A stretch of DNA of 64,000 nt from a virus. Location: the IMG/VR virus record IMGVR_UViG_3300042691_041392; one strand, given 5' to 3'. The position numbers and the translations under genes were made by a program. Under the pieces are notes generated by a model, which saw only the letters and a program-made list of their open reading frames with translations, was not told where the DNA came from and did no database searches. Of this stretch, positions 23,715 to 60,646 are shown in pieces; the stretch's first letter is position 1, and every line of letters begins with the position of its first letter.

Positions 23715-24431
23715 ATGACAACTTTTGATAAAATAAAAATAATTTCAAACTTTAAAGAGGAGAAAAATACACTACCTCAAATACAAGTCAATTATATTGA
23801 TTTTGTGTATGAAACTGAAGAAGAAAGATTGAAGAAAAAAATGGAAAGAAGAAACATCGCAATTGATGTTGTTCTTGATGAGGCTAATGAAGAAGATTTA
23901 GTGGATATAGTTCCTGATCAGACATTAAGAGATGAGTTATCTTTTGGTGGTGTTATAGCCCCACAAGTTTATAGTATGAGTATTCAATCAAAAAGATATA
24001 TATCAGAAGATAGTCTTTATGATGAAATTATCGACTTTATTGACAAATCAAACTTGAATTTGAATTCACCTGTTAATTTAGATTTAACTTTATCAAACTC
24101 ACCAGATGGATCTGATAATAGAAAGTTTATTTCTAAAGTAATGATGGCTTCCAACTTAATTGCTGTTGAAGGTAGAATAGGTCCTGCTAAAACTGTTATA
24201 TTAGGAAAGAATGTTTTTTATAAAATGGTGGATTGTTTAGATATGTTATCTAATACAGGTCTTCAACACTTTGTTGATTATTCAATTGATCCTGATAAAG
24301 TGATTGTTTTTAGAACAAACAATACAGATCAAAGTGGAATTATTTGTATTCTTGATGAGGGAAATGGTAGATATTTCTTAAAAGAAACACCAAATTGGGA
24401 GAGACAATATTGTAGTTTTAAAGTTATATAA
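23715..24431 (+). CDS. Reduced paralog of the major capsid protein
   Basis: Collinear matches to gp23 at 53766-55517: YIDFVY/YIDFQY, GGVIAP/AGVIGP, RKFISKVMMASNLIAVEGRIGPA/RKLITKIAHASNYIATEGRVGPA, RTNNTDQSGII/RKNNPDQPGII. Confidence 0.85.
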   Translation: MTTFDKIKIISNFKEEKNTLPQIQVNYIDFVYETEEERLKKKMERRNIAIDVVLDEANEEDLVDIVPDQTLRDELSFGGVIAPQVYSMSIQSKRYISEDSLYDEIIDFIDKSNLNLNSPVNLDLTLSNSPDGSDNRKFISKVMMASNLIAVEGRIGPAKTVILGKNVFYKMVDCLDMLSNTGLQHFVDYSIDPDKVIVFRTNNTDQSGIICILDEGNGRYFLKETPNWERQYCSFKVI

Positions 24432-24434
24432 AAT

Positions 24435-24464
24435 AAAAAAGACATCTATAAGATGTCTTTTTTT
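24435..24464. terminator. Bidirectional terminator
   Basis: aaaaaagacatct-ata-agatgtcttttttt. Confidence 0.8.
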
Positions 24465-24996
24465 ATGCTGGTACTCTTAATTTATCATATTTAAGTAGTA
24501 ATTTATACATTCTATCCCATTCGTCTTTTGGGTTTTGTATCTTTTTTTCATACCACTTATTGTTGTTCATGTATTCAACAATCATTCCAACTTTTAAATC
24601 ATCCATAGTTTTTGGAACCCAATATCTTTTTGCTTCTACGAACGAAAATGATACACCATTGTGTAAATATGATTTATTTTCCGAATCGGTATTATACATA
24701 AGTAAACCCAGTGGTTGTTCAGAACCATCAAAGAAAACTTTTTTAGCATTTGAATCTCCTTGGTATTTTACAATTGCGCAATCTTGATTAAAATGATCTA
24801 ATAAGAAAATAGCATCTCTTCTTAAAGAATCATTATCTGGTCCCCAAGCAATAACAGAATCTTCAAAGTTACCTTTATAATAACCTTGTATAGGTAAGAT
24901 TTGATATTCTTTTGAATAAAGAACAGAAATCATTTCGTTTAATCTATCAGCTGATAGAATTATATATGAAGATTGTACACTTTCTAATCCGTTCAT
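24463..24996 (-). CDS. Putative SAM lyase (T3 SAMase-like) with C-terminal extension
   Basis: 'YIILSADR', 'GYYKGNFEDSV' and 'FNQDCAIVK' resemble T3 SAMase 'YVLVSAFR', 'GCYRE..EEKTV' and 'WEQDCVLVY' (recalled, not aligned). Confidence 0.55.
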   Translation of the reverse strand: MNGLESVQSSYIILSADRLNEMISVLYSKEYQILPIQGYYKGNFEDSVIAWGPDNDSLRRDAIFLLDHFNQDCAIVKYQGDSNAKKVFFDGSEQPLGLLMYNTDSENKSYLHNGVSFSFVEAKRYWVPKTMDDLKVGMIVEYMNNNKWYEKKIQNPKDEWDRMYKLLLKYDKLRVPA

Positions 24997-25031
24997 ATTT
25001 TATATATTAATATCTTATAGTTATATATTAA

Positions 25032-26285
25032 TTATAAAATATTAAATTCTTCAAATAATTTGGTTTTGAAAATTGTTTCGATAGGTTCTTTATATTTTTT
25101 AGGAATAATTATACTATCATGTACAGTAACTAATTTTACTTCAGGGTAAAAAATCATTATATCTCTTATGATTTTATTAAAAATTAAATTAGATTCTGCT
25201 CTTTGTAATTCATATGATAGAATTTTATAATCACCTTTTTCTTTTTTATAAAGTTTTATAAAATAATGTATTGATGGAAATAATTCAGAAAATACTTTAT
25301 CTGCTTTACTATTGGAAGCATTCTTACCAAAAAGAACTCGGTAAGTCATTTCTTTAACCATTCCTTTATCAGTAGTTTTTAAATGATCCATTACATATTG
25401 ATAATATTTACCATTTATGGTTAAATATTTGAATAATTCAAACTCATCACTTCTAACCCATTTTGAGTTACTATCGGAAATTATTTTTGTTAAAAAAAGA
25501 GGTTGGCTGTTGTTGATATCAATTTCACAAGTTTCTTCACCATCTATCAGTAAACAGTTTTTTCTAATGAATGATTTTAAAATTGTGAAATTTGTGTGCA
25601 TTCTACCATAATTATCAAAATGATAGAATATGTGTTTATCATTTATACACTCTACTGAATATTTATTTCTATTATAAATATCACTATCATTATCTTTTAA
25701 ATTATCTAAATAAAATATTGATCTATCAAATTGAATATCAATATAAAAAAGATCATCTACTAACTTCGTTTTGATATCATCATCTATAAGTTTGTTTTTA
25801 ATACCATCTTCTTCAATTTGACAAACATTATTTCGATACTTTTTAAGTAAAATATTATCCGAATTTCTATATCGATTTATTTTACCTTTTAGAACTTTAT
25901 CATTTATTTTATAAACTCTAGCATTTCTACCAGCTTGGTAATTGGAGATCATTTCTAGTATATTATTATCTACTAAATATCCAATATAATAATTATAAAG
26001 ATATCCATACTTATCTTTTAGGATAGTTGACATTAAGTTAAATTTATTCTCTTTTTTAAAATAATATTTTAAAATAAGATTGTGTATTATATCAACTATA
26101 TAAGATGATTTTAATTTTACACCTTTGTACTCAAAATTTTTATTTTCAGATAATTCTTCTAAGATAGTTGGTAAGAATTGTAAACTTGATTTTTTAGTTT
26201 CAAGTTTTTTTCTGATAGTTGAGTGAAATTTTTTATCCTCAATTTCTAAGACTTCTAAATTCATAGATATTATATCATGTATCAT
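25032..26285 (-). CDS. PolA-family palm-domain protein lacking an exonuclease
   Basis: 'YGRMHT', motif A-like 'EIDINNSQP', 'LQRAES' and motif C 'TVHDSI'. Confidence 0.65.
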   Translation of the reverse strand: MIHDIISMNLEVLEIEDKKFHSTIRKKLETKKSSLQFLPTILEELSENKNFEYKGVKLKSSYIVDIIHNLILKYYFKKENKFNLMSTILKDKYGYLYNYYIGYLVDNNILEMISNYQAGRNARVYKINDKVLKGKINRYRNSDNILLKKYRNNVCQIEEDGIKNKLIDDDIKTKLVDDLFYIDIQFDRSIFYLDNLKDNDSDIYNRNKYSVECINDKHIFYHFDNYGRMHTNFTILKSFIRKNCLLIDGEETCEIDINNSQPLFLTKIISDSNSKWVRSDEFELFKYLTINGKYYQYVMDHLKTTDKGMVKEMTYRVLFGKNASNSKADKVFSELFPSIHYFIKLYKKEKGDYKILSYELQRAESNLIFNKIIRDIMIFYPEVKLVTVHDSIIIPKKYKEPIETIFKTKLFEEFNIL

Positions 26286-26295
26286 GATTTTAGTT

Positions 26296-26469
26296 CTACT
26301 TTTTAAAAATTTTCTTTATCTTATTTCTTCTAATTTCGGATCTTAAAATACCTTCTAAAAAATTATCATCAATACCATAATGATGACTTAAATCTGTCAC
26401 CATTTCAACACTCCATTCAGCTTTTAATGCTTTAGTGCTCACCTCAACAGATTTCATTTTTATACTCAT
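26296..26469 (-). CDS. 57-aa mini-protein: gp23-like peptide plus RRNKIKKIF motif (not in ORF track)
   Basis: MSIKMKSVEVSTKALKAEWSVEMVTDLSHHYGIDDNFLEGILRSEIRRNKIKKIFKK; ATG overlaps the upstream TAA (TAATG). Confidence 0.75.
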   Translation of the reverse strand: MSIKMKSVEVSTKALKAEWSVEMVTDLSHHYGIDDNFLEGILRSEIRRNKIKKIFKK

Positions 26470-27791
26470 TACTTAACTCCTTTCTCATCAACTATTGATG
26501 TTATTTTACCACCTTTACCTTTTTTCTTTTTATCTTCTGATCCTTTTTGTATTTCATCAAATACATCTGGATAAACTTCTCCTTCAGCATCTGTTTCATA
26601 TTGAATATCAAAAAACTCATCAAAGTCTAAAAGACCAGATCTTGTTAACTCAACTTCATGTATCTTATTCAAGTATCTATCAATATACTTATCAATATCA
26701 TCAACAAATAAGTTGAATAACTTAACCGTATTTTCAGTAAAAACTCCAATTGGTTTTTTTCTTTTCTTATTAAATGAACCAAGAATTATTTTAAAGATAT
26801 ATTCAAGTTTAGAATCTAATTCTAAATATTCTTTAGTCATCTTGTTTGGAATTAATTCTTTATTTATTTTAAATTTTTCTTTATCAAAAAATTCCGGTAT
26901 TATAAACTCAAAATTTACTAAGTCATCTTTAACTTCATCTAAATAAAAATTGTACAACTTACAAATTAGATAAATATAAATCTCATCTTTTTTAGTACCT
27001 TTTAGTTTAATATCTTCTAAATTTAAAGATTGACAAAAATTCAAAAAGTTAATTAAGATTAATGAGTATATTTCCACATAGTCAGTTGACTTATCACTAC
27101 TTACTCTTTTATATAGTGGATTTAGTAATTGAAATGATATATCTTTACTATCTATTCTAACAATTAGCTTTTCTAAATTTTCTTGAAATTCATCAAGCAT
27201 TAAAAAAGAATTTTCCGAGAGTGGATTTAATATTTTATAAAAGAAAAAGGCAAAAGACTTATCACCAAAAACATATTCTAAATCTTCTTCACTTGTGTTT
27301 AAAAAATACTTTATAGCCTCAATCATTCTCTCTGTTAATTTACCCTGAAATATAACCGGTATCATATCAACATTCATCAATCTAGAATATTCATCAATCT
27401 CTTCGATATTAAACTCATATTTACCACTTTTATAAATAGATGTTAATACTAATCCATTTTTTGGAAGTTTATCATATTCTATATTTGCTGGTTGATTATC
27501 AGGAAAGTACTCAAAACAAAACCACCATTTTTTATTTAAAAGTGATTTAACTCTATTATCTAGTGAATCTAAGTATTTTATAGCTGGGTTATAATAATTT
27601 TGCATAGCTAAATCAATTAGATTAATAGAATCACTATTAATTGATTTTGCTTTTATAGTAAAATCTTTACCATTCCAATTAACCCATATTTTACTTCCTT
27701 GAATATCTTCGAATACGGTTATATCATTACTAAACATAGAGTTAAGTAATTCTGTATTTTCTAAATCATTAAGTGTTTTTAAATTACTCAT
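26469..27791 (-). CDS. RNA-ligase-fold protein with degenerate catalytic motifs
   Basis: Motif I-like 'EDIQGS' (no Lys), III-like 'FCFEY', 'IPVIFQG' and IV-like 'EKLIVR'. Confidence 0.55.
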   Translation of the reverse strand: MSNLKTLNDLENTELLNSMFSNDITVFEDIQGSKIWVNWNGKDFTIKAKSINSDSINLIDLAMQNYYNPAIKYLDSLDNRVKSLLNKKWWFCFEYFPDNQPANIEYDKLPKNGLVLTSIYKSGKYEFNIEEIDEYSRLMNVDMIPVIFQGKLTERMIEAIKYFLNTSEEDLEYVFGDKSFAFFFYKILNPLSENSFLMLDEFQENLEKLIVRIDSKDISFQLLNPLYKRVSSDKSTDYVEIYSLILINFLNFCQSLNLEDIKLKGTKKDEIYIYLICKLYNFYLDEVKDDLVNFEFIIPEFFDKEKFKINKELIPNKMTKEYLELDSKLEYIFKIILGSFNKKRKKPIGVFTENTVKLFNLFVDDIDKYIDRYLNKIHEVELTRSGLLDFDEFFDIQYETDAEGEVYPDVFDEIQKGSEDKKKKGKGGKITSIVDEKGVK

Positions 27792-27865
27792 ATTTTTTTA
27801 TACTTTTTGTTTTGATTTTTGTTTTTATCCAAACTTACTTATATATAAAAAATATAAAATGTAGT

Positions 27866-31070: not shown

Positions 31071-31077
31071 TATATTT

Positions 31078-33396: not shown

Positions 33397-33397
33397 A

Positions 33398-33426
33398 TAA
33401 AAAAGAGACCTTTATGGTCTCTTTTT
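33398..33426. terminator. Bidirectional terminator
   Basis: aaaagagacc-tttat-ggtctctttt. Confidence 0.75.
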
Positions 33427-47194: not shown

Positions 47195-47225
47195 AAAAAC
47201 CTCTTATTAAATAAGAGGTTTTTTT
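47195..47225. terminator. Bidirectional terminator
   Basis: aaaaacctcttatt-a-aataagaggtttttt. Confidence 0.75.
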
Positions 47226-47553
47226 ATAATAGTTTGTTTAATTTTAAGTCTCTATAAACACGTTTGGTTATATTACCAAGTGATATATCAGAAAATCCAA
47301 TTGGGTCTACCATATCGTCTAAAATCGTCTTATATTTGTTATACCACTCATAAAATATATCACAACTCATTATAATTATTTCAGCGAAAGATATATTTGT
47401 GATAAAATCATCATATTGACAAACTAAGACATTACAATCATGACCAAAACTACTATTAGTGTGATAAAAAGGATAATTTATTGTAACACACATATTCCAA
47501 TCTAATGTTACAATAAAACCCATTTTATGTATTCTATCTAACTCATCAATCAT
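47224..47553 (-). CDS. Hypothetical protein ending RDLKLNKLL
   Basis: 109 aa. Confidence 0.7.
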   Translation of the reverse strand: MIDELDRIHKMGFIVTLDWNMCVTINYPFYHTNSSFGHDCNVLVCQYDDFITNISFAEIIIMSCDIFYEWYNKYKTILDDMVDPIGFSDISLGNITKRVYRDLKLNKLL

Positions 47554-47767
47554 TTAAAATCTTTTTAATTTTAAAATCTCTTTTATCAGATTTTTCAAGA
47601 GGTTCTAAGTAGATTTCACCATCTGAAATCCTAACCTCCCATTTACCTCCAGTTTTATCATCTAATAAAACTAGTTTCTTAACTATTACATTTCCATCTG
47701 GATCAACTAAAATTGATGAATCTCCATTTGGAGTGTTTATTTCAAATCTATTTGGTTTAATTGCCAT
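47546..47767 (-). CDS. Small protein ending RDFKIKKILND
   Basis: 73 aa. Confidence 0.7.
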   Translation of the reverse strand: MAIKPNRFEINTPNGDSSILVDPDGNVIVKKLVLLDDKTGGKWEVRISDGEIYLEPLEKSDKRDFKIKKILND

Positions 47768-48461
47768 TTAAAAGTTTATCTATTTTTTCGTCTCTCATTT
47801 GAGATAATAGAATTAGTGATGATTTTTGAAACTCATCATCTATAACATAAACTACTTCATTATCACTTATTTCAAAATAAAAATCATAACTAATAATTAT
47901 TTTTGGTTGAAAAGTTGCTTCACTACGAACTTCATATTGAAAATTATTTATGTTAAATCGTATATCATTAAATAAATAAATCATTTCATCATCCCACCTA
48001 AGATATGGATCAACATAAACTTCAAAATCTAAATACTTACCAACTGGATAAATATAACCATTTGTATTCAATGTGTTTTTAGATAATTTGAAATTAAAAA
48101 AATGAAAAGATGATGAGTCTTGTAACTCAGCTGACAATCTAGCACAACTAACTAAATTTTTATACTTATATTTTGATAAATATAAGCTAGTTATGTTTAA
48201 TTTTTCATAATAACCAATATTTCTCAAATCGATAAAACCTTTATTATATTTCATCTCTTTGAATATATACTTAATTAAAGTTCTTAAAATCTCATATTTA
48301 ATCTGACTAATAAATTTATCTATATATTCATCAGTCATTGGAACTGAAACTGAAATACTCACACTATTTTTATTAGACGTTATTTTATCATCTAAAATTA
48401 AAAAGTCTTTGTTTTCAAAACTTAAAGATTTGATTATATTTTCTATTAAATCACTATACAT
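47757..48461 (-). CDS. Degenerate major-capsid-protein paralog ending RDEKIDKLL
   Basis: GYIYPVG...VYVDPYLRWDD matches gp23 GQLYPVG...IYVDPYMKYND; SEATFQPK matches SEATFAPR. Confidence 0.82.
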   Translation of the reverse strand: MYSDLIENIIKSLSFENKDFLILDDKITSNKNSVSISVSVPMTDEYIDKFISQIKYEILRTLIKYIFKEMKYNKGFIDLRNIGYYEKLNITSLYLSKYKYKNLVSCARLSAELQDSSSFHFFNFKLSKNTLNTNGYIYPVGKYLDFEVYVDPYLRWDDEMIYLFNDIRFNINNFQYEVRSEATFQPKIIISYDFYFEISDNEVVYVIDDEFQKSSLILLSQMRDEKIDKLLNGN

Positions 48462-51080: not shown

Positions 51081-51100
51081 ATATTGTTTGTAATTATTTC

Positions 51101-51134
51101 TACAAATGTATATATAATATTTTAAATATACAAA
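51101..51134 (-). promoter_or_regulatory. Bacteroidota-type promoter for tmRNA (TTTG-N20-TACATTTG)
   Basis: Both elements are present, about 20 nt upstream of the tmRNA 5' end. Confidence 0.65.
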
Positions 51135-51189
51135 AAAGTTGAAAATTTTATTAAAAAAAATAACTCACCAAAGTGAGTTATTTAATATT

Positions 51190-53034
51190 TTAGAATACAT
51201 CAGTATCATCTGGCATATCACCATCATCCATTGAGTAGAAGTTGAATATAAATAGTGGTTCTACTTTTCTTGTTTCCCATATATCACATTCCAAATCAAA
51301 ATCAATTAAGACATCTTTATCAATTTTCTTTATAACTTCATAGATATGAATAACTTCATCAAGTTTATAAAAATAATTAACCATTCCGTATGTTGTTGGT
51401 ATAATTTGAACTTTTAAATTCATACCAGTATTTGTTACTTCACAGTTTTTGATACCAGCTTGAGTAATCATTTTTCTCAAAAGATATTTAAGATTATCAA
51501 TATCATCAGTGTTATTATCGTCATCATCTTCATATTGATCATAATCCTCTTCCTCTTCATCATCCCATCTATCCCACTCTTCATTTAAGAATTGGTCATA
51601 TTTCTTCAATTTATTTGACTCATAAGGATCATTATAAGTTCTATTAGTCTTAGATGAACTATCTTTACCCAATATAATTTGTAAATATGTCTCATCAAAT
51701 AAACAAGAAGTTGGTCTTTTGTGAAGTTTCATAACATTTCTAAGTTCTTTTAAACTTTCTAAAATGGTATCAATATCTTCATTTTCTAAATCAAAGTTTA
51801 CATAAACATTACCGTGATCAGTTGAAATAGTTTTATCTAAATTAACTCCTTTTAAAGCATCGACAAATTCTTTATTTGATGTTTTAACATTAGATATCAT
51901 CTGTTTAATAGCCGCTCTATCTTGAATAGTTCTCACAACTGGTAAGTTAGCCCAATCTACATTAACAGAAGCTTTACATAAATCTATTAAGTAATCCATA
52001 TTTTGAATTTCTTTACCAGTATGCTCATTTAAATAACCAACTGAAACGTTTGTACATTCAGGAATATCATCTATAAATGAAGCTGAATCGGTGAATACAC
52101 CAGTAGGGTCAATTTTCAAATTCAATCCACTTGCGTTATATTGTTCACAAAGTGCGTTACCAAATTCATCAGAACAACATCTACCACCAGCTTGTGCGGT
52201 AATAACAGAAATTGTTTTTCTTCTATCAAAAGAAACACATCTTTTAATATTTTTCAAATAACTAACTTCATCATATTTATCAGCTAAAGCTCTAGAACCA
52301 ATACCACCTCTTTCTTCTCCGATAAAGAAGTAATAAAGACCTGGTACATTTTTAGCCATCATATATAACATAACAGTTGTTCCTGCTTTATCATCAGCAC
52401 CTAATACTGTTGTTCCATCAGTTACGATGTGTTCTTGTTCATCAATTTGAACAGAAAAAAGTCTTGTAACAGCTTGTTTTCTATCGGCTGTATCTAAGTG
52501 ACAAGTAAACATAGTTGTTGGATTGTCACCAATTATTTTATAATAGTTACCAACAATATCTTTACTTAATTCAGGTAGGAATTGAAGAACTTCATCTTCA
52601 TGTCCATGTGGATAAGTTTTAGTAACTAATGAAAGGAATGTAGATCTTGGATCTAATGGATTATATTCAAATGTAGGAACCTTAATTGGAATTTTTTCAT
52701 CTTCAACAGATTCTCCTTTTTTAACTTTATTATACAAAGTAACAAAGTTTTGAATATCTTCTGATGTAAAATAATTATGAAAATAATATCTAATAAAGTT
52801 ACCACATTTCATATCAACTGTTCCTTTATCTTTTGTTGTTACTTTAAAATGAAAATCTTTATCAGAAACATCAACATTTGTTATTTTCAATCCATTGAAA
52901 TATTCTGTATCTTCATCATCTAAACATAATATTTCAAAAGCAATATATTCATTCATATCATTAAGCTTTTCTAATACATCTATTAAAGCTTTTGATAATT
53001 TTATTTTTGGTAAGTTTGTTGGTTCTCCCGCCAT
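51190..53034 (-). CDS. Multi-domain M20/M28 peptidase-like protein (paralog of 19744-20928)
   Basis: 'TYPHG', 'CHLDT', 'GADDKAG', 'GEE', 'FDRR' and 'SVGYLNEH', with extra N- and C-terminal domains. Confidence 0.85.
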   Translation of the reverse strand: MAGEPTNLPKIKLSKALIDVLEKLNDMNEYIAFEILCLDDEDTEYFNGLKITNVDVSDKDFHFKVTTKDKGTVDMKCGNFIRYYFHNYFTSEDIQNFVTLYNKVKKGESVEDEKIPIKVPTFEYNPLDPRSTFLSLVTKTYPHGHEDEVLQFLPELSKDIVGNYYKIIGDNPTTMFTCHLDTADRKQAVTRLFSVQIDEQEHIVTDGTTVLGADDKAGTTVMLYMMAKNVPGLYYFFIGEERGGIGSRALADKYDEVSYLKNIKRCVSFDRRKTISVITAQAGGRCCSDEFGNALCEQYNASGLNLKIDPTGVFTDSASFIDDIPECTNVSVGYLNEHTGKEIQNMDYLIDLCKASVNVDWANLPVVRTIQDRAAIKQMISNVKTSNKEFVDALKGVNLDKTISTDHGNVYVNFDLENEDIDTILESLKELRNVMKLHKRPTSCLFDETYLQIILGKDSSSKTNRTYNDPYESNKLKKYDQFLNEEWDRWDDEEEEDYDQYEDDDDNNTDDIDNLKYLLRKMITQAGIKNCEVTNTGMNLKVQIIPTTYGMVNYFYKLDEVIHIYEVIKKIDKDVLIDFDLECDIWETRKVEPLFIFNFYSMDDGDMPDDTDVF

Positions 53035-53071
53035 CTTTTAAAATTTCTTTTTTTGTATATATTAAATTCAA

Positions 53072-53686
53072 TTAATGAGTTATTTCAACTCTACCTTTAG
53101 AATATCTAACATACCTACTATTTGTATGATCTACCTGCACTTGACCAGTTACAGATCCTTGTTTTTTACTAACATAATCTTTTGTACAAACAACTATATC
53201 ACAATTTGAAAGGTCATTTAAAGAATATTTCTTTTTTTCATTACTTTCCATCTTTTCTAAATGACTGTTTTTTTTAACTATGTCAGCAGCTTGTAGAATA
53301 ACATTCTCTGGTATAATATCATCTTTTAATGTTTTAATTATAAGATGAGTTCCAATAATTCTATCACCAGTAACTTCTTCACCATTAGTTTTATAATAGT
53401 GATCAGGATTTTTTATACTTGTAGCGTGCATCCAAATATCATTTTTACTAGGCTCTGAACCACCGATTGGGTTAGCAAATTTACCGGAATACATAGTGGT
53501 TAGAAAATCATTACTTTTAGCATTTCTACCCCAATAGACATCATATACATTTTCTGGATTATTCGAATCTGATATTTTTTTATGTTTTATATCATAACCA
53601 TCCAATTTGAATTGTTCTAAATCACTTTTTGGAGTGCTTGTAGATGTCTCATATACTTTAAACGTTTTAAATCTTTTAATTCTCAT
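53072..53686 (-). CDS. NFACT-R (DUF814) RNA-binding domain protein
   Basis: 'GRNAKSNDFLT', 'DIWMHA', 'GTHLII', 'ILQAA' and 'VSKKQG..GQV'. Confidence 0.75.
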   Translation of the reverse strand: MRIKRFKTFKVYETSTSTPKSDLEQFKLDGYDIKHKKISDSNNPENVYDVYWGRNAKSNDFLTTMYSGKFANPIGGSEPSKNDIWMHATSIKNPDHYYKTNGEEVTGDRIIGTHLIIKTLKDDIIPENVILQAADIVKKNSHLEKMESNEKKKYSLNDLSNCDIVVCTKDYVSKKQGSVTGQVQVDHTNSRYVRYSKGRVEITH

Positions 53687-53719
53687 AGTTTATATATTAA
53701 AATTGAAAAATGTATAAAC

Positions 53720-53749
53720 AAAAAAAACTCTCCATCAGGAGAGTTTTTT
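53720..53749 (-). terminator. Terminator after major capsid gene
   Basis: aaaaaactctcc-atca-ggagagtttttt. Confidence 0.8.
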
Positions 53750-53765
53750 ATATCTTTATTAACTA

Positions 53766-55517
53766 TTAGTTAAGTAATTGATTTCTATCAGTTACAACGA
53801 TAGTCATAAATTGTTTTTGTGGGAACCAACCAACTTCAGCTACTGCGTATCTAGATCTTAGTAACATTCTTGGAGCGAAAGTCGCTTCAGAAATAACTGA
53901 GATAGATTGAGCCATTAAGTAAGGTACGAAGATGATACCTGGTTGATCAGGATTGTTTTTTCTACCTAAAACGATTCTGTTGTCGTTATATTTCATGTAT
54001 GGATCAACATAGATAGAAATATCACCAATTGAACCAACAGGATATAATTGACCTTGTCCGTTTAATTTAGATTTAACTGGGTTAATAGTGTAACCAGCGA
54101 TATCTTGTAAAGCTGCAGCTAATCCCCCGTTTGTGATTAAGTATTGAGCTGGACCTACACGACCTTCAGTTGCGATGTAGTTAGAAGCGTGAGCAATCTT
54201 AGTGATTAACTTTCTTTGAACAGCGTGTGTAGTTTCACCTGTTACAGCAGCACTAGCATAAGCTGTGTTTAAGTCAAAGATTGTTGAAGCAGAACCAGTA
54301 ATTAAAGTACTTGATAAAGAAGTATTTAATGGAGCTGATGTTCTGTTTAACGCACCCATCTCAAAGATTTTAGCAACGATTTGTTTAGAAATTGTTTGAG
54401 ATAACTCGTTAACAAGGATAGATTCCATTTTTTGAACGATATCCATACCTGTGTTAGCTTTAATATCTTCAATTTCTGTTCTTCTTAAAGCTGAAGATAC
54501 TTCAATAGTACCAACTGCGATAGTTTTAGAAGAAATTTTTGGTCCGATAACACCAGCGTAAGAGTCATCGTCAGCATCTCTACCCATTGGGTAAGAACCA
54601 GCAGCGTTAGAAGTAGCAACACCTGTCCAGTTTGCAGAGAAACCAGGGATATGATCTTCTAATGCAGATACTAATTCAACAGTTTTTGTACTTGCACCTG
54701 ATACAGAGTGAGTACCAACAAGAACGATTTGAGATGACATAGAAGCCGTAGCTGAGAATGTATTTCTTGTAGAGTCAAAAGCCCAAGCAGTTGTAAATTG
54801 GTTTACACCTGTGTGAGATGTGTTAGCTTGTCTGTAAGCTCTGAAGATTGGGTAACCATCGATACGAGAGAAACCTAAGAACTCAGCGTAAGCAGCTTTG
54901 TTTGAAGGCTCAGTTTGAGTAAACTCACCACCTACTGGTGCTTCAGATCCTGCTGTGTTAGATGCAGTACCTAAAGTAACCCATACTCTACCACCTTGAA
55001 GACCACCACTTGTTTGAGTAATGTTATATCCAGATAATTTAGTGTTTAATGTTGTAGTAACATTTCCTAATGTAGTAGAGTCTAAGTTTAATTTGAAAAC
55101 TTGTGGTCTCTCATCAGATGCGCCTAATCTTGTATCATCATATTGGAAATCAATATAAAGTAAATCAATTTTCGGACCTGGAGAAGGTTTAACAGCTACT
55201 AAATCTAAACCGATTGTTTGAGCAGCGATTTTCATAGCTACTGGTAAAAGGTTTTGACCAACGTCTCCTGAACCAGCAACACCACCCCAGTTTGCACCAA
55301 CTGTAACACCTGAAGGTGTATTTGAACCAATAACTGGATTTAAAACAGCACCCATACCTGCTACGTTAGAAGCATTTACATATGCATTTTCATTGATTGA
55401 GTGAAACTCAGCGTATTCCGCCATCCATTCAACTCTATCACCTGTAACTCCCATGTTCTCAAGAACCGGAGCCCATTTCTTAGTTGCTTTCGCTTTGTCT
55501 ATTCTAATGTGTGACAT
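53766..55517 (-). CDS. Major capsid protein (T4 gp23-like)
   Basis: 'KKWAPVLE', 'IYVDPY', 'IIFVPY' and 'TFAPRMLLRSRYA'; highly biased codons; downstream of the protease. Confidence 0.93.
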   Translation of the reverse strand: MSHIRIDKAKATKKWAPVLENMGVTGDRVEWMAEYAEFHSINENAYVNASNVAGMGAVLNPVIGSNTPSGVTVGANWGGVAGSGDVGQNLLPVAMKIAAQTIGLDLVAVKPSPGPKIDLLYIDFQYDDTRLGASDERPQVFKLNLDSTTLGNVTTTLNTKLSGYNITQTSGGLQGGRVWVTLGTASNTAGSEAPVGGEFTQTEPSNKAAYAEFLGFSRIDGYPIFRAYRQANTSHTGVNQFTTAWAFDSTRNTFSATASMSSQIVLVGTHSVSGASTKTVELVSALEDHIPGFSANWTGVATSNAAGSYPMGRDADDDSYAGVIGPKISSKTIAVGTIEVSSALRRTEIEDIKANTGMDIVQKMESILVNELSQTISKQIVAKIFEMGALNRTSAPLNTSLSSTLITGSASTIFDLNTAYASAAVTGETTHAVQRKLITKIAHASNYIATEGRVGPAQYLITNGGLAAALQDIAGYTINPVKSKLNGQGQLYPVGSIGDISIYVDPYMKYNDNRIVLGRKNNPDQPGIIFVPYLMAQSISVISEATFAPRMLLRSRYAVAEVGWFPQKQFMTIVVTDRNQLLN

Positions 55518-55603
55518 AATTAATTTATTTTTTTTTATTTTTTTTATAATCTATATATTACCTTAATTTTACTCGTTTTTTTCAAGTGTGGATTTTTTAT
55601 AGA

Positions 55604-57712
55604 TTAGATGTTTTTGAATCTTTCCATAATAGCATTTACATCATTGTCAGATAATTTATCTTCTTGAATTAAAGCATCATGTGAAACTAATTTTTTAGTT
55701 ACAGATTCATTTGTTTTAAGATTTCTAGTTGCCCAGAAATGCTCAATTTGTGACTCAGTTGTTAACATTTCAGCTGGGTATAATCTAGCTTGTGATAACA
55801 TAGATTTTTTAGCTGATTCATTTAACTGATTCCAGATAGCCTTAGTGTTTTCAGGCATCATTCTGATAACTCTTTCTTCTAGAGTTTCATTTTTAGTTGA
55901 TAATGCTTCAGAAATTAATGAAAGAACTTCTTTTTGTGTGAAGTAACTTCTTTCGTTTATGTGAAGTTTAACAGTTTCTTGTTCTTCATTAGTTAAAGCA
56001 TAGTAACTATCAACTTGTGATTTAGATAAGAATTTTAAGAAATTCAAATCTGATGTCTCGGAAACTTTACGTTTTTTAGCCTCTTCGATTAATTTATTAA
56101 TAGATTCAGATAATTCAGAATCATTGTCACCAGAAACTTCATAGTCCATTGGTCCACATTCTTCATCATCTTCTTCATCTTCTTCGTGTGCATAAGCCTC
56201 TTCAGAACCTACGTGAGAAATACCATTGTATTCTTCTTCATCTTCGTTTTCTTCTTCAGAACCCCAAGCTTCTTCTTCATCCTCATCTTCTAAAGAAGAA
56301 AAACCAGCAGCGTTTAATGTTGGGAAAGCTTCTTCAGCAGATTCGAATAATTTACCACCGTTTAATTTCTCAGCAATCATCCCAGCGTAAGAGATTGATT
56401 TGTCTAAGTTCTCAGCGATATATTCAGAGTAAGCGATATTATCATCTAAGTGTTCAGCGATATATTCTGAATAAGCGATATTACCTTCTACGTGCTCAGC
56501 TAAATACTCAGAGTAAGCAATTGAATTATCAACGTGCTCAGCGATATATTCAGAGTAAGCGATGTTTTTATCTAAGTTTTCAGCGATGTATTCAGAGTAA
56601 GCGATATTCTTATCTAAATTCTCAGCGATATACTCAGAGTAAGCGATGTTTTTATCTAAGTTTTCAGCGATATACTCAGAATAAGAGATATTCTTATCTA
56701 AGTTTTCAGCGATATACTCAGAGTAAGCGATGTTTTTATCTAAGTTTTCAGCAACGTATTCAGAATAAGCGATATTCTTATCTAAATTCTCAGCTAAATA
56801 CTCAGAGTAATTAACAGCTTTTTCTAGATTTTCAGCTAAATAGTCATTGTGTTTAATAAGTTTGTCAGTTGTTTCTTTTAACGACTTGTTCTCATTAACC
56901 ATAATTTGAACTTTTTCAGCTAAATAATCTAAATACTTAACAACTTGAGAATTAGTAGTGTTTAATTCATCATAATACTCAAGTAGTTGTTCTAATTTCT
57001 TAGGGCTTAAGTTACCTTTAGAAATAGCATTCTTAACTTCTTTCTTTGTAGAAGCTAATTCATTAACTAAATACTTAGAGTAATCAGTTAATTGTTGCTT
57101 AGTAACAAACTCATTTTTGTTCATGTTAAATAGATCATTTATTTTTGACTCATCGGACATTTCATATATCCTAAAGTTGGATTGTGGATTATCATAACCT
57201 AGTGATTCATTAAGTGTTTTAACACTCATTTTAGCTGAAGCAAAACCTGGATCAGCAACTATATCATAAGTAAATAATTTCTTTAACGAAACTGATCCGT
57301 CAGACTCAGTAATACCTGCGGCTCTAGAAGAAACAAAAACAGGACATCCGTCATCGACCAATGCCTTAGCTTCTTTACCCCAATAAGTACTTAATAATCT
57401 GATTTCACCAGTGACATTATTAGCCTCTTTAACATAGTTAGCTTTAGTAATTATGTGTGAAGCCCTTGAAAGAGATGTGTCAAATACGTCTGGATGGTCA
57501 AATTCACCATACACAGCACCTAACCCATTCATCCTTTCGTTAAGTTCTTGTAGAGCTGGTAAGAATTTTTCAGCTGTATAAATTCTTTCATTACGGTTTT
57601 TAACACCGAATTCTGTAAATATACCACCTAATACATACTTATCTTTACTCACCGAATTATTCTCAACAATAAGAGAATTAGTTGAATTTTCTACAATTAA
57701 GACTGGTTTCAT
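55604..57712 (-). CDS. Prohead protease (gp21-like) fused to scaffold-like coiled-coil domain
   Basis: 'KNRNERIY', 'GEFDHP', 'VSSRAAG' and 'YDIVADPGF', then 14-aa repeats. Confidence 0.9.
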   Translation of the reverse strand: MKPVLIVENSTNSLIVENNSVSKDKYVLGGIFTEFGVKNRNERIYTAEKFLPALQELNERMNGLGAVYGEFDHPDVFDTSLSRASHIITKANYVKEANNVTGEIRLLSTYWGKEAKALVDDGCPVFVSSRAAGITESDGSVSLKKLFTYDIVADPGFASAKMSVKTLNESLGYDNPQSNFRIYEMSDESKINDLFNMNKNEFVTKQQLTDYSKYLVNELASTKKEVKNAISKGNLSPKKLEQLLEYYDELNTTNSQVVKYLDYLAEKVQIMVNENKSLKETTDKLIKHNDYLAENLEKAVNYSEYLAENLDKNIAYSEYVAENLDKNIAYSEYIAENLDKNISYSEYIAENLDKNIAYSEYIAENLDKNIAYSEYIAENLDKNIAYSEYIAEHVDNSIAYSEYLAEHVEGNIAYSEYIAEHLDDNIAYSEYIAENLDKSISYAGMIAEKLNGGKLFESAEEAFPTLNAAGFSSLEDEDEEEAWGSEEENEDEEEYNGISHVGSEEAYAHEEDEEDDEECGPMDYEVSGDNDSELSESINKLIEEAKKRKVSETSDLNFLKFLSKSQVDSYYALTNEEQETVKLHINERSYFTQKEVLSLISEALSTKNETLEERVIRMMPENTKAIWNQLNESAKKSMLSQARLYPAEMLTTESQIEHFWATRNLKTNESVTKKLVSHDALIQEDKLSDNDVNAIMERFKNI
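56375..56836 (-). repeat. 11 in-frame 42-bp repeats (AENLDKNIAYSEYI)
   Basis: Counted in the translation. Confidence 0.9.
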
Positions 57713-57856
57713 GTAAAATAGTTATTTTTTGTATAAATTATAGTGTATATATTGCCTTATCAAACTCCTCTTTTTTCTATATGGATTTTTTACAGTAACT
57801 AAATTTTATAAATACCAAAAGGCTTTTTAAATCATGATTTTTAAAACATTTTCAAA

Positions 57857-58288
57857 ATGAAAAATAAAATACATGTATATTTATATAAAATGATTCTAAC
57901 TAGAGAAATAGATGTAAAGATTAGTGAGTCCAATTTTCATTACTATGAAGACTTAGGATATGATATAGGATTGGGTGAGGTTATTACCATACCAGTAGAA
58001 TTACTTTCGAAAGGTTCCCATCATAAAATAAAGTGCCAATGTGATAGTTGTGGTATAGAAAAACAGGTTATATATAAAAACTATCTTAAATACGACAATA
58101 AGAATTGGGGAGACTATTTTTGTAGAAAATGTTCAGAAATAAAAAGAAAAGAAACACTAAGAAAAAACTTTGGTGTTGATTATCCTATACAAAATAAAAA
58201 AGTATTATCTAAAATGAAAAATACCTTAGTTGAAAAATACGGTGTAGATAATATATCAAAAAAGAATAAAATAAATAAAGATGGCTAA
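57857..58288 (+). CDS. Zn-ribbon protein resembling a homing-endonuclease DNA-binding region with no nuclease domain
   Basis: 'KGSHHKIKCQCDSCG', 'CRKC' and 'KYGVDN' repeats. Confidence 0.6.
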   Translation: MKNKIHVYLYKMILTREIDVKISESNFHYYEDLGYDIGLGEVITIPVELLSKGSHHKIKCQCDSCGIEKQVIYKNYLKYDNKNWGDYFCRKCSEIKRKETLRKNFGVDYPIQNKKVLSKMKNTLVEKYGVDNISKKNKINKDG

Positions 58289-60185
58289 ATACAATGAAGG
58301 AGATATTCTTGAATCTCAAATAGAATTCTCCGTTAGCGGAAATGCAACTGTCAAAGTTGATGGAAAAGAATTTTTCGTACATAAAAAGAGAACGTTAAAT
58401 TCACTACACTTAGATAAAGTAAGATTTGTTCTCTTTAAAGGAGAAAAAAAATTAGAAGCAAAAGTAATAGAGGTAGTTGAAAGATTTAAATTAGAATTTG
58501 TAGGAACTACTCAAGTTAAAAAAGATCACACATTTGTTATACCAGATAACTCAAAAATACACGTTGACTTTTATATAAAAGGTAAACACTCAGCAGAAGA
58601 TAATCAAAAAGTACTTGTTAAATTTGATAGTTGGGAAAACGGTCAAAAATCACCAAATGCTAAAATTGTTAAAATTTTAGGAACTGTTGGTGAGAATGAA
58701 ACCGAAATGAACGCTATTATGTATGAATATAACTTACCAGTGGATTTCCCACAAGAAGTTTTAAATGAATCAGAGTTAATATCAGAAGTTATTACTGAGA
58801 AAGAGATATCTAAAAGAAGAGATTTGAGAAATATAACTACAATCGGTATCGATCCGTTTGATTCAAAAGATGCTGATGATACAATCGGATTAGAATTTAA
58901 AGATGGTAAAAGATATGTTTCTATAAATATCGCAGATGTTACACACTATATAAAACCAGGAAGTGCCTTAGATGAAGAAGCTTATAAAAGATCATCTTCT
59001 GTTTATTTAGTTGATAGATGTGTGCCAATGATACCAAAAAGATTGAGTAATGGTATATGTTCTTTAAAATCAGGTAGTGATAAACTATGTTACTCTGTTA
59101 TAGTTGAATTAGATACAAATGGTAGAATTGAAAACACTTGGTTTGGTAGAACTATTGTAAACGTAAATAAAGACTATTCTTATGAAATGGCTCAAGAAGT
59201 TATCGACAGAGGAACAGCATCAGAAGAAAATAAAGATTGTGATGAGGTTATTTTAGAATTACACAGATTAGCTTTAAAAATGAGAAGAAGAAGAATGTTA
59301 GGAGGTTCCATGGAAATTGGTGGTGTTGAAGTTAAATTCAAATTAGCTGATGATAATAAAAAACCAATTGGACTTTATTTAAAAGAACAAAAAGAAGCTA
59401 ATCACTTAATAGAAGAATATATGTTATTAGCGAATAGAGAAGTTGCTAAGTTTATTAAGTCTAGAGGGTTACCTTGTGTTAATAGAATTCACGAAGAACC
59501 GGATGAAACTAAATTAGAACATATTAAAACATTCATATCAACTTTAGGATATGAAGTAAATTACGGTGATACACCTGAGAAGACTAAATTAGTTATAAAT
59601 GAACTAATGAAAAGTTGCAAAGGAACTAGTGAGGAAAACATCATTACAACTTTAATAGTTAGAGCTCAGCAAAAGGCTAAATATACAACTAGAAACATTG
59701 GTCATTATGGTTTGGGATTTGAACACTATTCACACTTCACAAGTCCGATTAGAAGATATAGTGATATGTTGACACATAGATTATTATCAATGGCATTGAA
59801 AAGTGAGGGATATAGTAAAGATGTTAAACCAAACGAATTAGAAAAACAATGTGAGTGGATATCTAAACAAGAAGTAGTATCAGCAAAAGCTCAAAGAGAT
59901 TCTATTAAGTATAAACAAGCTGAATACTTAGGAGACAGAATTGGTCAAGTTTTTGATGGAATTGTTTCAGGTGTATTAGATAGAGGAATCTATGTAGAAT
60001 TGTTTGAAAGTAAATGTGAAGGTTTAATAAAACTAAGTAGTTTAGAAGGAAAATGGATGGCTTATCCAGATAATTACTATGCTGTTAGTGATTTAGGTGA
60101 TAAAGTTAGATTAGGTGATCCAATAAAGGTTGTTGTTAAGTCAGTTGATTTAGAAAAGAAACAAATCGATTTTTTAAAATTTTAA
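58281..60185 (+). CDS. rnr: Ribonuclease R (RNB family)
   Basis: 'IDPFDSKDADD', 'IADV', 'LIEEYMLLAN', 'YSHFTSPIRRYSD' and C-terminal S1. Confidence 0.92.
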   Translation: MAKYNEGDILESQIEFSVSGNATVKVDGKEFFVHKKRTLNSLHLDKVRFVLFKGEKKLEAKVIEVVERFKLEFVGTTQVKKDHTFVIPDNSKIHVDFYIKGKHSAEDNQKVLVKFDSWENGQKSPNAKIVKILGTVGENETEMNAIMYEYNLPVDFPQEVLNESELISEVITEKEISKRRDLRNITTIGIDPFDSKDADDTIGLEFKDGKRYVSINIADVTHYIKPGSALDEEAYKRSSSVYLVDRCVPMIPKRLSNGICSLKSGSDKLCYSVIVELDTNGRIENTWFGRTIVNVNKDYSYEMAQEVIDRGTASEENKDCDEVILELHRLALKMRRRRMLGGSMEIGGVEVKFKLADDNKKPIGLYLKEQKEANHLIEEYMLLANREVAKFIKSRGLPCVNRIHEEPDETKLEHIKTFISTLGYEVNYGDTPEKTKLVINELMKSCKGTSEENIITTLIVRAQQKAKYTTRNIGHYGLGFEHYSHFTSPIRRYSDMLTHRLLSMALKSEGYSKDVKPNELEKQCEWISKQEVVSAKAQRDSIKYKQAEYLGDRIGQVFDGIVSGVLDRGIYVELFESKCEGLIKLSSLEGKWMAYPDNYYAVSDLGDKVRLGDPIKVVVKSVDLEKKQIDFLKF

Positions 60186-60187
60186 TT

Positions 60188-60646
60188 ATGGGACAATTAT
60201 ATAGAGTAGATAATGAGGATTCTCATTTAAAAAATAGAATTAAAAAATTCTATTTAGAAGGAATTAAATTATCACAATTTGAAAATAAATTAGAAAAGTG
60301 GCCCAACTGGTTACAATTTAAAAGAGAAATTAAGTTGAACTCTTTACTAGAAGGTAAAAGAGTTCAATTTGATATTGAAGATATTAATGAATGGGGTAAA
60401 ATTGATAGTGTTAAATCAAATGATATGAGTTTATCTGATGTGGTTTTTTCGGTTAAAAGAATCACAATGATTATAAAAGATGATATTGTCGATGAGTTAG
60501 AAATTGAATGGAGACCATTACAAACAGAATTGGGTAGATCAATAATTGGATTATTAGATGCTGGAATTGATGTAGATATATCTATGAGTTTCTTTGAGGA
60601 TCAATTTAGTCATTTTTATATAAAAACAGAAAAGAATGTAGCATAA
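60188..60646 (+). CDS. Degenerate prohead-protease-like protein with internal REIKLNSLL motif
   Basis: WGKIDSVKSNDMSLS vs gp21 YGEFDHPDVFDTSLS; RPLQTELGRSIIGLLDAG vs RLLSTYWGKEAKALVDDG. Confidence 0.65.
   Translation: MGQLYRVDNEDSHLKNRIKKFYLEGIKLSQFENKLEKWPNWLQFKREIKLNSLLEGKRVQFDIEDINEWGKIDSVKSNDMSLSDVVFSVKRITMIIKDDIVDELEIEWRPLQTELGRSIIGLLDAGIDVDISMSFFEDQFSHFYIKTEKNVA

What the first reader, a model, noticed from the sequence alone, without database searches (positions are those of the whole stretch)
23715..60646. Tagged degenerate copies of core phage proteins: possible decoy or bait system
Seen: five tag carriers are eroded copies of essential phage proteins. Three are capsid-derived (23715, 26296, 47757), one is prohead-protease-derived (60188) and one is RecA/DnaB-like (14074). 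They lie outside the head operon, and most are not behind the late motif. Established: major capsid proteins trigger bacterial immunity (CapRel, Lit), and prohead protease has been reported to activate CBASS. Inference: these are non-functional mimics of immune triggers that bind host sensors and, through the common tag, deliver them to a sequestering or degrading hub. An alternative is dominant-negative interference with co-infecting phages.
Basis: partly seen in the sequence, partly recalled or inferred. Interest (0 to 1): 0.9.

Follow-up and report, generated by a model that had tools for sequence, protein, structure and literature searches.

The report
Tagged mini-capsid and dead-protease paralogs
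A huge T4-like phage keeps slimmed-down copies of its own capsid protein and head protease that carry a short peptide label shared with dozens of other small proteins. The copies are real, conserved genes, but what reads the label, and whether they act as immune decoys, is still unknown.

Summary
Four of the five named carriers really derive from head proteins.
- 47757 is a compact HK97-fold protein. hhalign to the phage's own capsid protein gives 99.4% (E 1.7e-21), and the model matches T4 gp23 at Z 11.3.
- 23715 is a second mini-capsid (hhalign 96%).
- 26296 is a 57-aa piece equal to T4 gp23 residues 254-298.
- 60188 has the gp21 protease fold (Z 8.3) but no catalytic His.
- 14074 is only a generic P-loop NTPase with intact Walker motifs.

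They are not eroded. Each belongs to a conserved, syntenic family, and close pairs give dN/dS of 0.1-0.4. The mini-capsid 47757 is patchy (27 of 80 relatives), so it is not a vertex protein.

The tag, R-[DEN]-x-K-[IL]-x-x-[IL]-[LF], is real. It sits at the C-terminus of 6, 8 and 31 genes in three genomes, against fewer than 0.04 expected.

Tag genes avoid the late-promoter motif (0 of 45 directly upstream). They often follow a TAnnTTTG box, which I take to be a Bacteroidota-type host promoter.

The decoy idea passes its own refutation tests but has no direct support, and the tag's reader is unknown. This scan noted a similar tag plus head-protein snippets in another T4-like phage (e1-5467768, e1-5467769).

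The parts
47757..48461 (-). P0002: 234-aa mini HK97-fold protein. The core spans about residues 1-210, followed by a C-terminal tag helix (213-231, ...MRDEKIDKLLNGN).
   Evidence: Family found in 27 loci and in LR745206. Tag residues R223, K226, I227 and L231 are invariant or nearly so.
23715..24431 (+). P0001: 238-aa mini-capsid paralog. An internal tag (residues 46-55, RRNIAIDVVLDE; NRDLAIDILLDD in relatives) sits where the MCP carries its roughly 190-aa insertion.
   Evidence: R46, A49, I50, D51 and L54 are invariant in 9 cluster representatives.
26296..26469 (-). 57-aa ORF made of a T4-type gp23 beta-strand plus the start of the spine helix. It ends in a tag-like ...RRNKIKKIFKK and is start/stop-coupled (TAATG) to 26469-27791.
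   Evidence: Five homologues in relatives end in RKKSINKIF.
60188..60646 (+). P0003: 152-aa gp21-like pseudo-protease with an internal tag helix (W41...KREIKLNSLL54). It is the last gene of a 3-gene string that includes an RNase II/R gene, between the portal and protease genes.
14074..14595 (-). P0004: 173-aa P-loop NTPase with intact Walker A and B and a C-terminal tag (...NRDEKINKLLDEK). It is not demonstrably derived from a core phage protein.
   Evidence: A tagged homologue occurs in relative G2.
47546..47767 (-). 73-aa tagged protein (...KRDFKIKKILND), directly downstream of P0002.
   Evidence: Present in 28 loci and in LR745206.
47224..47553 (-). 109-aa tagged protein (...YRDLKLNKLL), third gene of the tagged trio.
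21005..21562 (-). 185-aa tagged protein (...IRDKKIDSLFDDEK). It is conserved and tagged in the window, G1 and G2. A retropepsin-like peptidase gene (21540-21944) and an M28-like peptidase gene (19744-20928) flank it.
19226..19465 (-). 79-aa tagged protein (...IRDNKLNKIL-stop).
62515..62739 (-). 74-aa protein with the tag variant ...LRDNKLNELGI, upstream of the portal gene.
   Evidence: The same variant ends a 610-aa protein of G1.
53766..55517 (-). Major capsid protein (583 aa, T4 gp23 family), the parent fold of the mini-capsids.
   Evidence: Pfam Gp23 E 2.1e-27.
55604..57712 (-). Prohead protease (S77, gp21-like N-terminal domain) fused to a long C-terminal region. It is the parent fold of P0003.

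Best explanation
The window comes from a huge T4-like phage of the clade that holds the 630-640-kb genomes LR745206 and LR756502. Its host is probably a member of the Bacteroidota.

Roughly 3-9% of the genes in three genomes of this clade (the window and two near-complete relatives) encode small accessory proteins of 57-250 aa. They share one portable amphipathic helix, hh-R-[DEN]-x-K-[IL]-x-x-[IL]-[LF]. This helix nearly always lies 0-3 residues from the C-terminus. In two families it is grafted inside the fold.

Four of the named carriers are domesticated, cut-down paralogs of head-assembly proteins: two mini HK97-fold proteins, a 57-aa strand-plus-spine-helix peptide of T4-type gp23, and a catalytically dead gp21-type protease. 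They are intact genes kept by selection. Their presence varies between relatives, their bodies change fast, and they are not placed behind the late-promoter motif.

Most likely mechanism (inferred): they are non-structural competitive mimics. They occupy partners that normally bind or are cut by the real capsid protein and protease. Those partners could be host sensors, the phage's own maturation machinery, or a rival phage's assembly. The tag would be a docking helix that ties all carriers to one common, still unidentified partner.

Shown here: homology, folds, loss of the catalytic residue, conservation of the tag, purifying selection, and promoter-motif class. Inferred: mimicry, timing of expression, and docking.
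For: Homology and fold:
-.

Loss of function as capsid or protease:
- The catalytic His of the protease (GEFDHP) is replaced, and the P0003 family has no invariant His or Ser.
- The mini-capsids align only to about the last 130-200 residues of the 583-aa MCP and lack its insertion.

Selection:
- Close pairs give dN/dS of 0.16-0.40 (P0002 family), 0.08-0.35 (P0003 family) and 0.13-0.31 (73-aa family).
- The tag columns are among the few invariant columns of these families.
- 100 of 117 full-length representatives of the P0003 family keep W-x3-[KN]-R-[DE]-I-K-L-x2-L-L.

The tag is real and acts at the protein level:
- C-terminal carriers number 6, 8 and 31, against 0.005, 0.035 and 0.02 in shuffles.
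- Synonymous codons vary within the tag.
- 38 of 45 tags end within 3 residues of the stop codon.

Accessory nature:
- Carriers are mostly orphans, with no Pfam or PHROG family in about 30 tested.
- P0002 is absent from G1 and G2.

Non-late class:
- The late-type motif lies directly upstream of 0 of 45 C-tag genes and 23 of 45 N-tag genes.
- It is the nearest upstream motif for 7 of 45 C-tag genes, 36 of 45 N-tag genes and 348 of 699 other genes.
- TAnnTTTG is the nearest motif for 19 of 45, 5 of 45 and 110 of 699.

Context:
- P0002 follows a Dam methylase gene.
- Prohead-protease activity is a published CBASS trigger (PMC12991175).
- CBASS escape mutations map to phage virion-assembly proteins (10.1101/2023.05.21.541620).
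Against: - No binding partner was identified. No expression or virion data exist for this uncultured clade.
- The promoter classes rest on short AT-rich motifs. 19 of 45 C-tag genes have neither motif, including the P0002 trio and the P0003 operon.
- P0003 is nearly universal (67 of 80 loci) and fixed inside the head gene cluster. That fits a role in the phage's own head maturation at least as well as counter-defence.
- Three tagged genes in a row lie in the same gene string as the head genes.
- A distant megaphage (LR756500) has two adjacent mini-HK97 genes without this tag. The mini-capsid function therefore does not need the tag.
Confidence: 0.4

Rival explanations
1. The C-terminal tag is a second capsid-targeting (encapsidation) signal. 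Tagged proteins, including the mini-capsids and the dead protease, dock on the scaffold/core or the inner shell. They would then be minor head or internal proteins, perhaps injected with the DNA.
For: - Three consecutive tagged genes sit in the head gene string, and P0003 sits between the portal and protease genes.
- The parent proteins are prohead components.
- C-terminal helices are used for encapsidation by the HK97 protease and by scaffolding proteins (from memory).
- Carriers are small, diverse and fast-changing, like T4 internal proteins.
- An M28-like protein is conserved just downstream of the MCP.
Against: - C-tag genes avoid the late motif (0 of 45 directly). A separate N-terminal, CTS-like tag class is strongly late (36 of 45) and never overlaps the C-tag class.
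- [LIV]-x-E cleavage motifs are not enriched before the tag.
- Several carriers lie in the nucleotide-metabolism region.
Confidence: 0.2
2. The tag is a sliding-clamp-binding peptide (PIP-box or T4 type) that tethers many small factors to the phage clamp.
For: - The core K-[IL]-[DN]-x-[IL]-[LF]-[DNG] resembles the T4 gp43 and gp55 ends ...SLDFLFG and ...SLDFLYEAND (PMC2988020).
- The spacing D-x-x-[IL]-x-x-[IL]-[LF] is that of a PIP box (from memory).
- The position is strictly C-terminal.
- A 73-aa ORF of G1, next to the polymerase and the putative clamp, ends in the tag fused to a polymerase-like tail...RDSKIDDLFDGFDFD.
- Two carrier families lie among DNA-metabolism genes.
Against: - The clade's own polymerase ends in ...VVMDIFSGFGFGK, without the conserved R and K.
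- T4-type clamp ligands are hydrophobic and acidic (PMC2988020).
- Dozens of orphan carriers and head-protein derivatives are odd clamp clients.
- The clamp's identity rests on weak leads only (against 69, 74, 86).
Confidence: 0.12
3. The tag is a C-terminal processing or turnover signal, read by a phage or host peptidase, that times the life of early proteins.
For: - The tag keeps a strict distance from the free C-terminus.
- A tagged gene lies between a retropepsin-like (PF05618, E 3.5e-15) gene and an M28-like peptidase gene in the window and in G2.
- Carriers are mostly in the non-late class.
Against: - Internal, fold-embedded versions of the tag are strongly conserved in P0001 and P0003. 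A C-terminal degron does not predict this.
- G1 keeps the tag but lacks the retropepsin-like gene beside its copy of the tagged gene.
Confidence: 0.08
4. The carriers are decaying leftovers of gene duplication or of homing-endonuclease traffic and have no function of their own.
For: The genome is full of homing endonucleases and split genes. One endonuclease gene abuts 23715.
Against: - The reading frames are intact, and the families are conserved at fixed positions across dozens of relatives.
- dN/dS is well below 1 in close pairs, and the tag is invariant.
Confidence: 0.03

Closest known systems
T4 capsid-targeting sequence (CTS) on internal proteins IPI, IPII, IPIII and Alt
   Same: A short portable peptide shared by small, diverse, fast-changing accessory proteins of a T4-type phage.
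   Different: The CTS is N-terminal, is cut off at L/I-x-E, and sits on late, packaged proteins. This tag is C-terminal or internal, shows no cleavage-site enrichment, and its genes avoid the late motif. A separate CTS-like N-terminal tag class exists in the same genomes.
T4 gp24 vertex protein (paralog of gp23)
   Same: An HK97-fold paralog of the major capsid protein encoded downstream of it. The P0002 model matches gp24 (1yue) at Z 10.2.
   Different: P0002 is 234 aa against 427. It lacks the insertion domain, is absent from many relatives, is only 25-35% identical where the MCP is about 75%, and carries the tag helix.
T4 Inh (minor head protein that inhibits the gp21 protease) and inactive protease homologues in general
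   Same: A small protein encoded near the head genes that could modulate the prohead protease. P0003 is a dead gp21-fold protein.
   Different: There is no sequence similarity between P0003 and T4 Inh. The inhibitor role of P0003 is only inferred.
Capsid-protein homologues used for interference, such as Ccm of SaPIbov5 (from memory)
   Same: An HK97-fold copy of a capsid protein used for something other than building the element's standard shell.
   Different: Those proteins are full-size and co-assemble into small capsids. The proteins here are cut down, phage-encoded and tagged.
C-terminal clamp-binding motifs (T4 gp43, gp33 and gp55; PIP box)
   Same: A short C-terminal hydrophobic motif shared by unrelated proteins that dock on one hub, with a similar L-D-x-L-F core.
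   Different: The conserved Arg and Lys are not part of T4-type motifs. The clade's own polymerase tail is different, and binding is not shown.

Membership tests
T4 gp23-type major capsid protein / HK97 fold (PF07068) | Significant sequence or profile match to gp23-family proteins | tested here: met
   - 26296: Pfam Gp23 36.3 bits, above the 24.4 cut-off.
- P0002 family against the MCP family: hhalign 99.4%.
- P0001: hhalign 96%.
- P0001 and P0002 themselves get no Pfam hit.
T4 gp23-type major capsid protein / HK97 fold (PF07068) | HK97 fold | tested here: met
   For the P0002 model, 189 Foldseek hits at E<=1e-3. All 50 listed hits are capsid-shell or encapsulin-type entries. Z is 11.3 to T4 gp23 over 188 residues. 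P0001 and the 57-aa ORF were not modelled.
T4 gp23-type major capsid protein / HK97 fold (PF07068) | Full-length architecture (N-terminal region, long E-loop, insertion domain) needed to build the shell | tested here: not met
   The proteins are 234, 238 and 57 aa against 583. The alignments cover only MCP 356-556 and 433-531.
T4 gp24-type vertex protein | Present in every related genome and conserved about as well as the MCP | tested here: not met
   The family HMM finds no copy in G1 or G2, and the gene order there skips it. It occurs in 27 of 80 loci and is 25-35% identical where the MCP is about 75%.
S77 prohead protease (T4 gp21) | gp21 / herpesvirus-protease fold | tested here: met
   VIA-align Z 8.3, rmsd 3.7 A, 110 residues to 5jbl_A. 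The next unrelated hit scores 4.8, and herpesvirus proteases score 3.4-4.2. hhalign 94% to the phage's own protease.
S77 prohead protease (T4 gp21) | Catalytic His and Ser conserved | tested here: not met
   The His of GEFDHP / GELNHP aligns to Ser or other residues. The P0003 family has no invariant His or Ser.
T4 capsid-targeting sequence | N-terminal position, L/I-x-E cleavage site, late expression | tested here: not met
   The tag is C-terminal or internal. There is no cleavage-motif enrichment: 42% against 34%. The late motif lies directly upstream of 0 of 45 genes.
Clamp-binding C-terminal motif (T4 type / PIP box) | Motif pattern at the extreme C-terminus | tested here: inconclusive
   The core resembles SLDFL[FY] of T4 gp43 and gp55. 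However, the clade's polymerase tail differs, and R and K are extra conserved residues.
Clamp-binding C-terminal motif (T4 type / PIP box) | Physical binding to the sliding clamp | not testable with these tools
   This needs a pull-down or ITC with purified clamp and tag peptide.
RecA / DnaB-type ATPase (claimed for 14074) | Specific profile match to RecA or DnaB families | tested here: not met
   Only weak generic P-loop hits (TK, AAA_14, AAA_22 at E 2e-4 to 4e-4; Sak4 phrog at 3.5e-3). There is no hit to the window's own DnaB-like gene.

The most novel reading that the evidence does not exclude
An early-expressed decoy set. The dead protease would occupy the bait loops of host sensors that fire when cut by prohead protease (CBASS CD-NTases). 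The mini-capsids and the 57-aa T4-type gp23 peptide would soak up sensors of the conserved capsid core. The shared tag would tether these and dozens of other takeover proteins to one hub.
Probability: 0.15. Interest if true: 0.9.

Novelty: new variant of a known kind. Interest (0 to 1): 0.65.

Why it matters
Capsid proteins and prohead proteases are among the main signals by which bacteria detect phage. A phage clade that keeps cut-down, inactive copies of exactly these two proteins is therefore of interest. It expresses them apart from the late genes, judging by promoter motifs. It also marks them with the label used on about 7% of the genes of one near-complete relative.

This points either to a new kind of counter-defence (molecular decoys) or to an unknown layer of head-assembly control in giant phages. 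Separately, the tag defines a testable 'address system' for 50 or more proteins of unknown function in three genomes of the clade. Finding its reader would assign a common pathway to a large block of viral dark matter. The same theme, a shared tag plus head-protein snippets, was noted by this scan in an unrelated T4-like phage, which suggests convergence.

Tried and rejected
- Complex prediction: putative clamp (three copies) with the tagged tail of the 21005 family gave 'no answer' (score 0.10, mark 0.32). This is evidence neither for nor against binding.
- Clamp identity: nothing from Pfam DNA_PPF, PDB sequence or profile searches, PHROGs, or hhalign against T4 gp45. The only leads are ESM-Atlas neighbours and a 12-bit gp45-slide_C hit.
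- Carrier annotation: Pfam or PHROG scans of about 30 further carriers gave no credible family.
- P0001 relatives: the search for related loci with P0001 found nothing. The protein database then gave 9 clusters.
- PDB sequence search with the P0002 family profile gave nothing useful.
- T4 late promoter: TATAAATA is not enriched, with 25 matches against 20.8 expected. The clade's late-type motif is [AT]ATATATA.
- Cleavage site before the tag: not enriched.
- 14074 against the 21005 family: only the tag region aligns.
- Vertex-protein reading of P0002: rejected because of its patchy presence and fast change.
- Pseudogene reading: rejected because of selection.
- Lit/Gol link: rejected. The 57-aa ORF maps to gp23 254-298; the Gol coordinates are from memory.
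- DNA-level repeat as the source of the tag: rejected, because codons vary and the 27-mers are only 65% identical on average.
- No whole genome is held for the window.

Full report
**What the window is**

The window has 27% G+C. It carries a T4-type head gene cluster:
- portal, 60684-62435(-), Pfam Portal_T4 E 6.9e-57;
- an S77 prohead protease fused to a long C-terminal region, 55604-57712(-);
- the major capsid protein (MCP), 53766-55517(-), Pfam Gp23 E 2.1e-27.

The nearest records are uncultured huge phages: LR756502 and LR745206 (MCP 73% identical) and then LR756501 (50%). Lak phages and Tenacibaculum phage PTm1 follow at 28-29%.

No whole genome is held for the window. I therefore fetched 80 related head loci from IMG/VR and two near-complete relatives: G1 (249 kb) and G2 (385 kb).

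The genome is riddled with homing endonucleases and split genes.

**The five carriers**

*P0002 (47757-48461)*
- BLASTP to the phage's own MCP gives E 8.7e-10.
- Its family of 20 sequences aligns with the MCP family at 99.4% probability, E 1.7e-21, residues 45-193 to MCP 356-556.
- The AF2 model (pLDDT 85) has the HK97 fold. There are 189 Foldseek hits at E<=1e-3, and all 50 listed are capsid-shell or encapsulin-type entries. Z is 11.3 to T4 gp23 and 10.2 to gp24. The aligned core ends near residue 210, so the tag helix (213-231) is an appendage.

*P0001 (23715-24431)*
- It aligns with MCP 433-531 at 96%, E 2.6e-9.
- It belongs to a family of 9 cluster representatives.

*The 57-aa ORF (26296-26469)*
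- It passes the Pfam Gp23 cut-off.
- It equals T4 gp23 254-298 at 40% identity, and gp24 170-216 more weakly.
- It has no BLAST hit to the phage's own MCP. Five homologues exist.

*P0003 (60188-60646)*
- It aligns with the phage's own protease at 94%, E 1.3e-7.
- Its model matches T4 gp21 at Z 8.3 over 110 residues, well clear of the next hit at 4.8.
- The catalytic His is replaced, and nothing like a catalytic pair is conserved in the family.

*P0004 (14074-14595)*
- It is only a generic P-loop NTPase with intact Walker motifs.

**The tag**

The motif is hh-R-[DEN]-x-K-[IL]-[DNK]-x-[IL]-[LIF]-x-stop.
- C-terminal carriers number 6 in the window, 8 in G1 and 31 in G2 under a strict pattern. 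Shuffles give 0.005, 0.035 and 0.02. Looser variants add more, such as 26296 and 62515 in the window and a 610-aa protein in G1.
- 38 of 45 tags end within 3 residues of the stop codon.
- Synonymous codons vary, so selection acts on the peptide.
- The tag columns are among the few invariant columns of every conserved carrier family.
- In P0001 the tag sits where the MCP has its insertion: NRDLAIDILLDD, with five invariant residues.
- In P0003 it forms an internal helix. 100 of 117 full-length representatives of a 173-cluster family keep it.
- In P0003 the first half of the tag is collinear with the protease motif N-R-N-x-R-[IL]-Y.

**Not erosion**

- The P0002, 73-aa and 109-aa genes form a conserved trio downstream of a Dam methylase gene. 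The P0002 and 73-aa genes follow Dam in the same order in LR745206.
- P0003 is in 67 of 80 loci at the same place.
- Close pairs give dN/dS of 0.16-0.40 (P0002), 0.08-0.35 (P0003) and 0.13-0.31 (73-aa family).
- Yet P0002 is only 25-35% identical where the MCP is about 75%. It is also missing from G1 and G2. It is therefore an accessory gene and not a shell component.
- A more distant megaphage (LR756500) has two adjacent mini-HK97 genes without this tag.

**Expression class, from motifs only**

- MCP, protease, portal and their neighbours are preceded by [AT]ATATATA.
- This motif lies within 60 nt upstream of 0 of 45 C-tag genes. It does so for 23 of 45 genes that carry a distinct N-terminal tag (M-[RK]-Y-[LI]-K-x-F, CTS-like) and for about 30% of other genes.
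- Walking up gene strings, the nearest motif is late-type for 7 of 45 C-tag genes, 36 of 45 N-tag genes and 348 of 699 others.
- The nearest motif is TAnnTTTG for 19 of 45, 5 of 45 and 110 of 699. I take TAnnTTTG to be the Bacteroidota -7 box, from memory.
- No gene has both tags.
- The C-tag class therefore looks mostly non-late and the N-tag class late. The P0002 trio and the P0003 operon themselves have neither motif within reach.

**Who reads the tag**

This is unknown.
- The core resembles the T4 clamp-binding ends of gp43 and gp55 (PMC2988020).
- A 73-aa ORF of G1 next to the polymerase carries the tag fused to a polymerase-like tail.
- Against this, the clade's polymerase tail is different.
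- A retropepsin-like gene and an M28-like peptidase gene flank one tagged gene in the window and in G2.

**Reading**

The best-supported account is a portable docking helix on a large set of mostly non-late accessory proteins. Within that set, a small group are domesticated, inactive derivatives of the two head proteins that bacteria are known to sense (PMC12991175; 10.1101/2023.05.21.541620).

These most likely act as competitive mimics. Whether the target is host immunity, the phage's own maturation or a rival phage cannot be decided here. Encapsidation, clamp tethering and timed turnover remain live rivals.

**Comparison and novelty**

The nearest known things are the T4 CTS, gp24, Inh, capsid homologues used for interference, and clamp-binding tails. 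Each fails at least one defining feature (see the membership test). I rate the finding a new variant of a known kind: a short shared docking tag, here joined to pseudo-capsid and pseudo-protease paralogs.

The scan's earlier notes e1-5467768 and e1-5467769 describe a similar theme with a different tag in another T4-like phage. I did not check those notes.

Noticed in passing
Window genes 17325, 45970 and 46393; G1 and G2 genome-wide: A second, N-terminal tag class (M-[RK]-[YWI]-[LIV]-[KRE]-x-[FYW], CTS-like) marks 10 genes in G1 and 32 in G2. It never coincides with the C-terminal tag. 36 of 45 such genes follow the late-type motif.
   Followed up: partly
window:57857-60646 (+): A 3-gene string lies between the portal and protease genes on the opposite strand: a DUF7487-like ORF, a full RNase II/R gene (RNB E 2.4e-98) and P0003. 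All three genes are conserved in at least 63 of the 80 related loci.
   Followed up: partly
window:9911-12416 (-); G1 174510-177045: The family-B DNA polymerase is split. Part A (exonuclease domain plus the start of the palm) ends at 10890 and is followed by a DUF723 homing endonuclease gene. In G1, part B lies elsewhere, directly after a putative gp45/PCNA-like clamp gene, and ends in ...VVMDIFSGFGFGK.
   Followed up: partly
window:19744-21944 (-); G2 92156-94202: There is a conserved gene order: a retropepsin-like peptidase (PF05618, E 3.5e-15), then the tagged 185-aa protein, then an M28-like peptidase. A paralogous M28-like 614-aa protein (51190-53034) sits just downstream of the MCP in 69 loci.
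   Followed up: partly
window:55604-57712 and 60188-60646: The prohead-protease motif N-R-N-x-R-[IL]-Y (T4 gp21 NRNKRLY; this clade NRNERIY) is collinear with the first half of the tag in P0003, and its R-N-x-R-[IL] core has the same pattern as R-[DEN]-x-[KR]-[IL]. This could be chance, or a hint at the tag's origin.
   Followed up: no
window:26296-26469: The 57-aa capsid peptide is closer to T4 gp23 (40% identity) than to the phage's own MCP (no BLAST hit). It probably derives from a different T4-type capsid or vertex gene.
   Followed up: partly
window:487-3582 (-): A DnaB-like helicase C-terminal part (487-1656) is separated from an upstream ORF (2854-3582) by a 393-aa endonuclease-like gene with an MTES_1575-type nuclease end. 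I did not check the intein.
   Followed up: no
window:7863-8981, 9911-10879, 22764-23681: Three paralogous DUF723 / treble-clef zinc-finger homing-endonuclease-like genes occur, 41-47% identical to one in relative L021. One abuts P0001.
   Followed up: no
window:34559-41252 (+): Two very large ORFs (1193 and 1022 aa) lie in a region of raised G+C (35-40%). They have similar C-terminal ends and repetitive middle parts, and are probably fibre proteins.
   Followed up: no
P0003 family (A2; P0134-P0283): 24 of 117 full-length family members end in -AA, and many end in PK-x-AA.
   Followed up: no
L127 (LR756500 246182-249460): A distant 462-kb megaphage has two adjacent mini-HK97 genes (313 and 209 aa), resembling P0002 and P0001 respectively. 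Neither carries the R-D-x-K-I tag.
   Followed up: partly
window:50162-50668 (-): A 168-aa gene downstream of the 614-aa M28-like gene (51190-53034) and upstream of the Dam and P0002 genes matches phrog_1017 (E 9e-40, function unknown). From memory its N-terminus looks like a NADAR/YbiA-type domain. I did not check this against Pfam.
   Followed up: no
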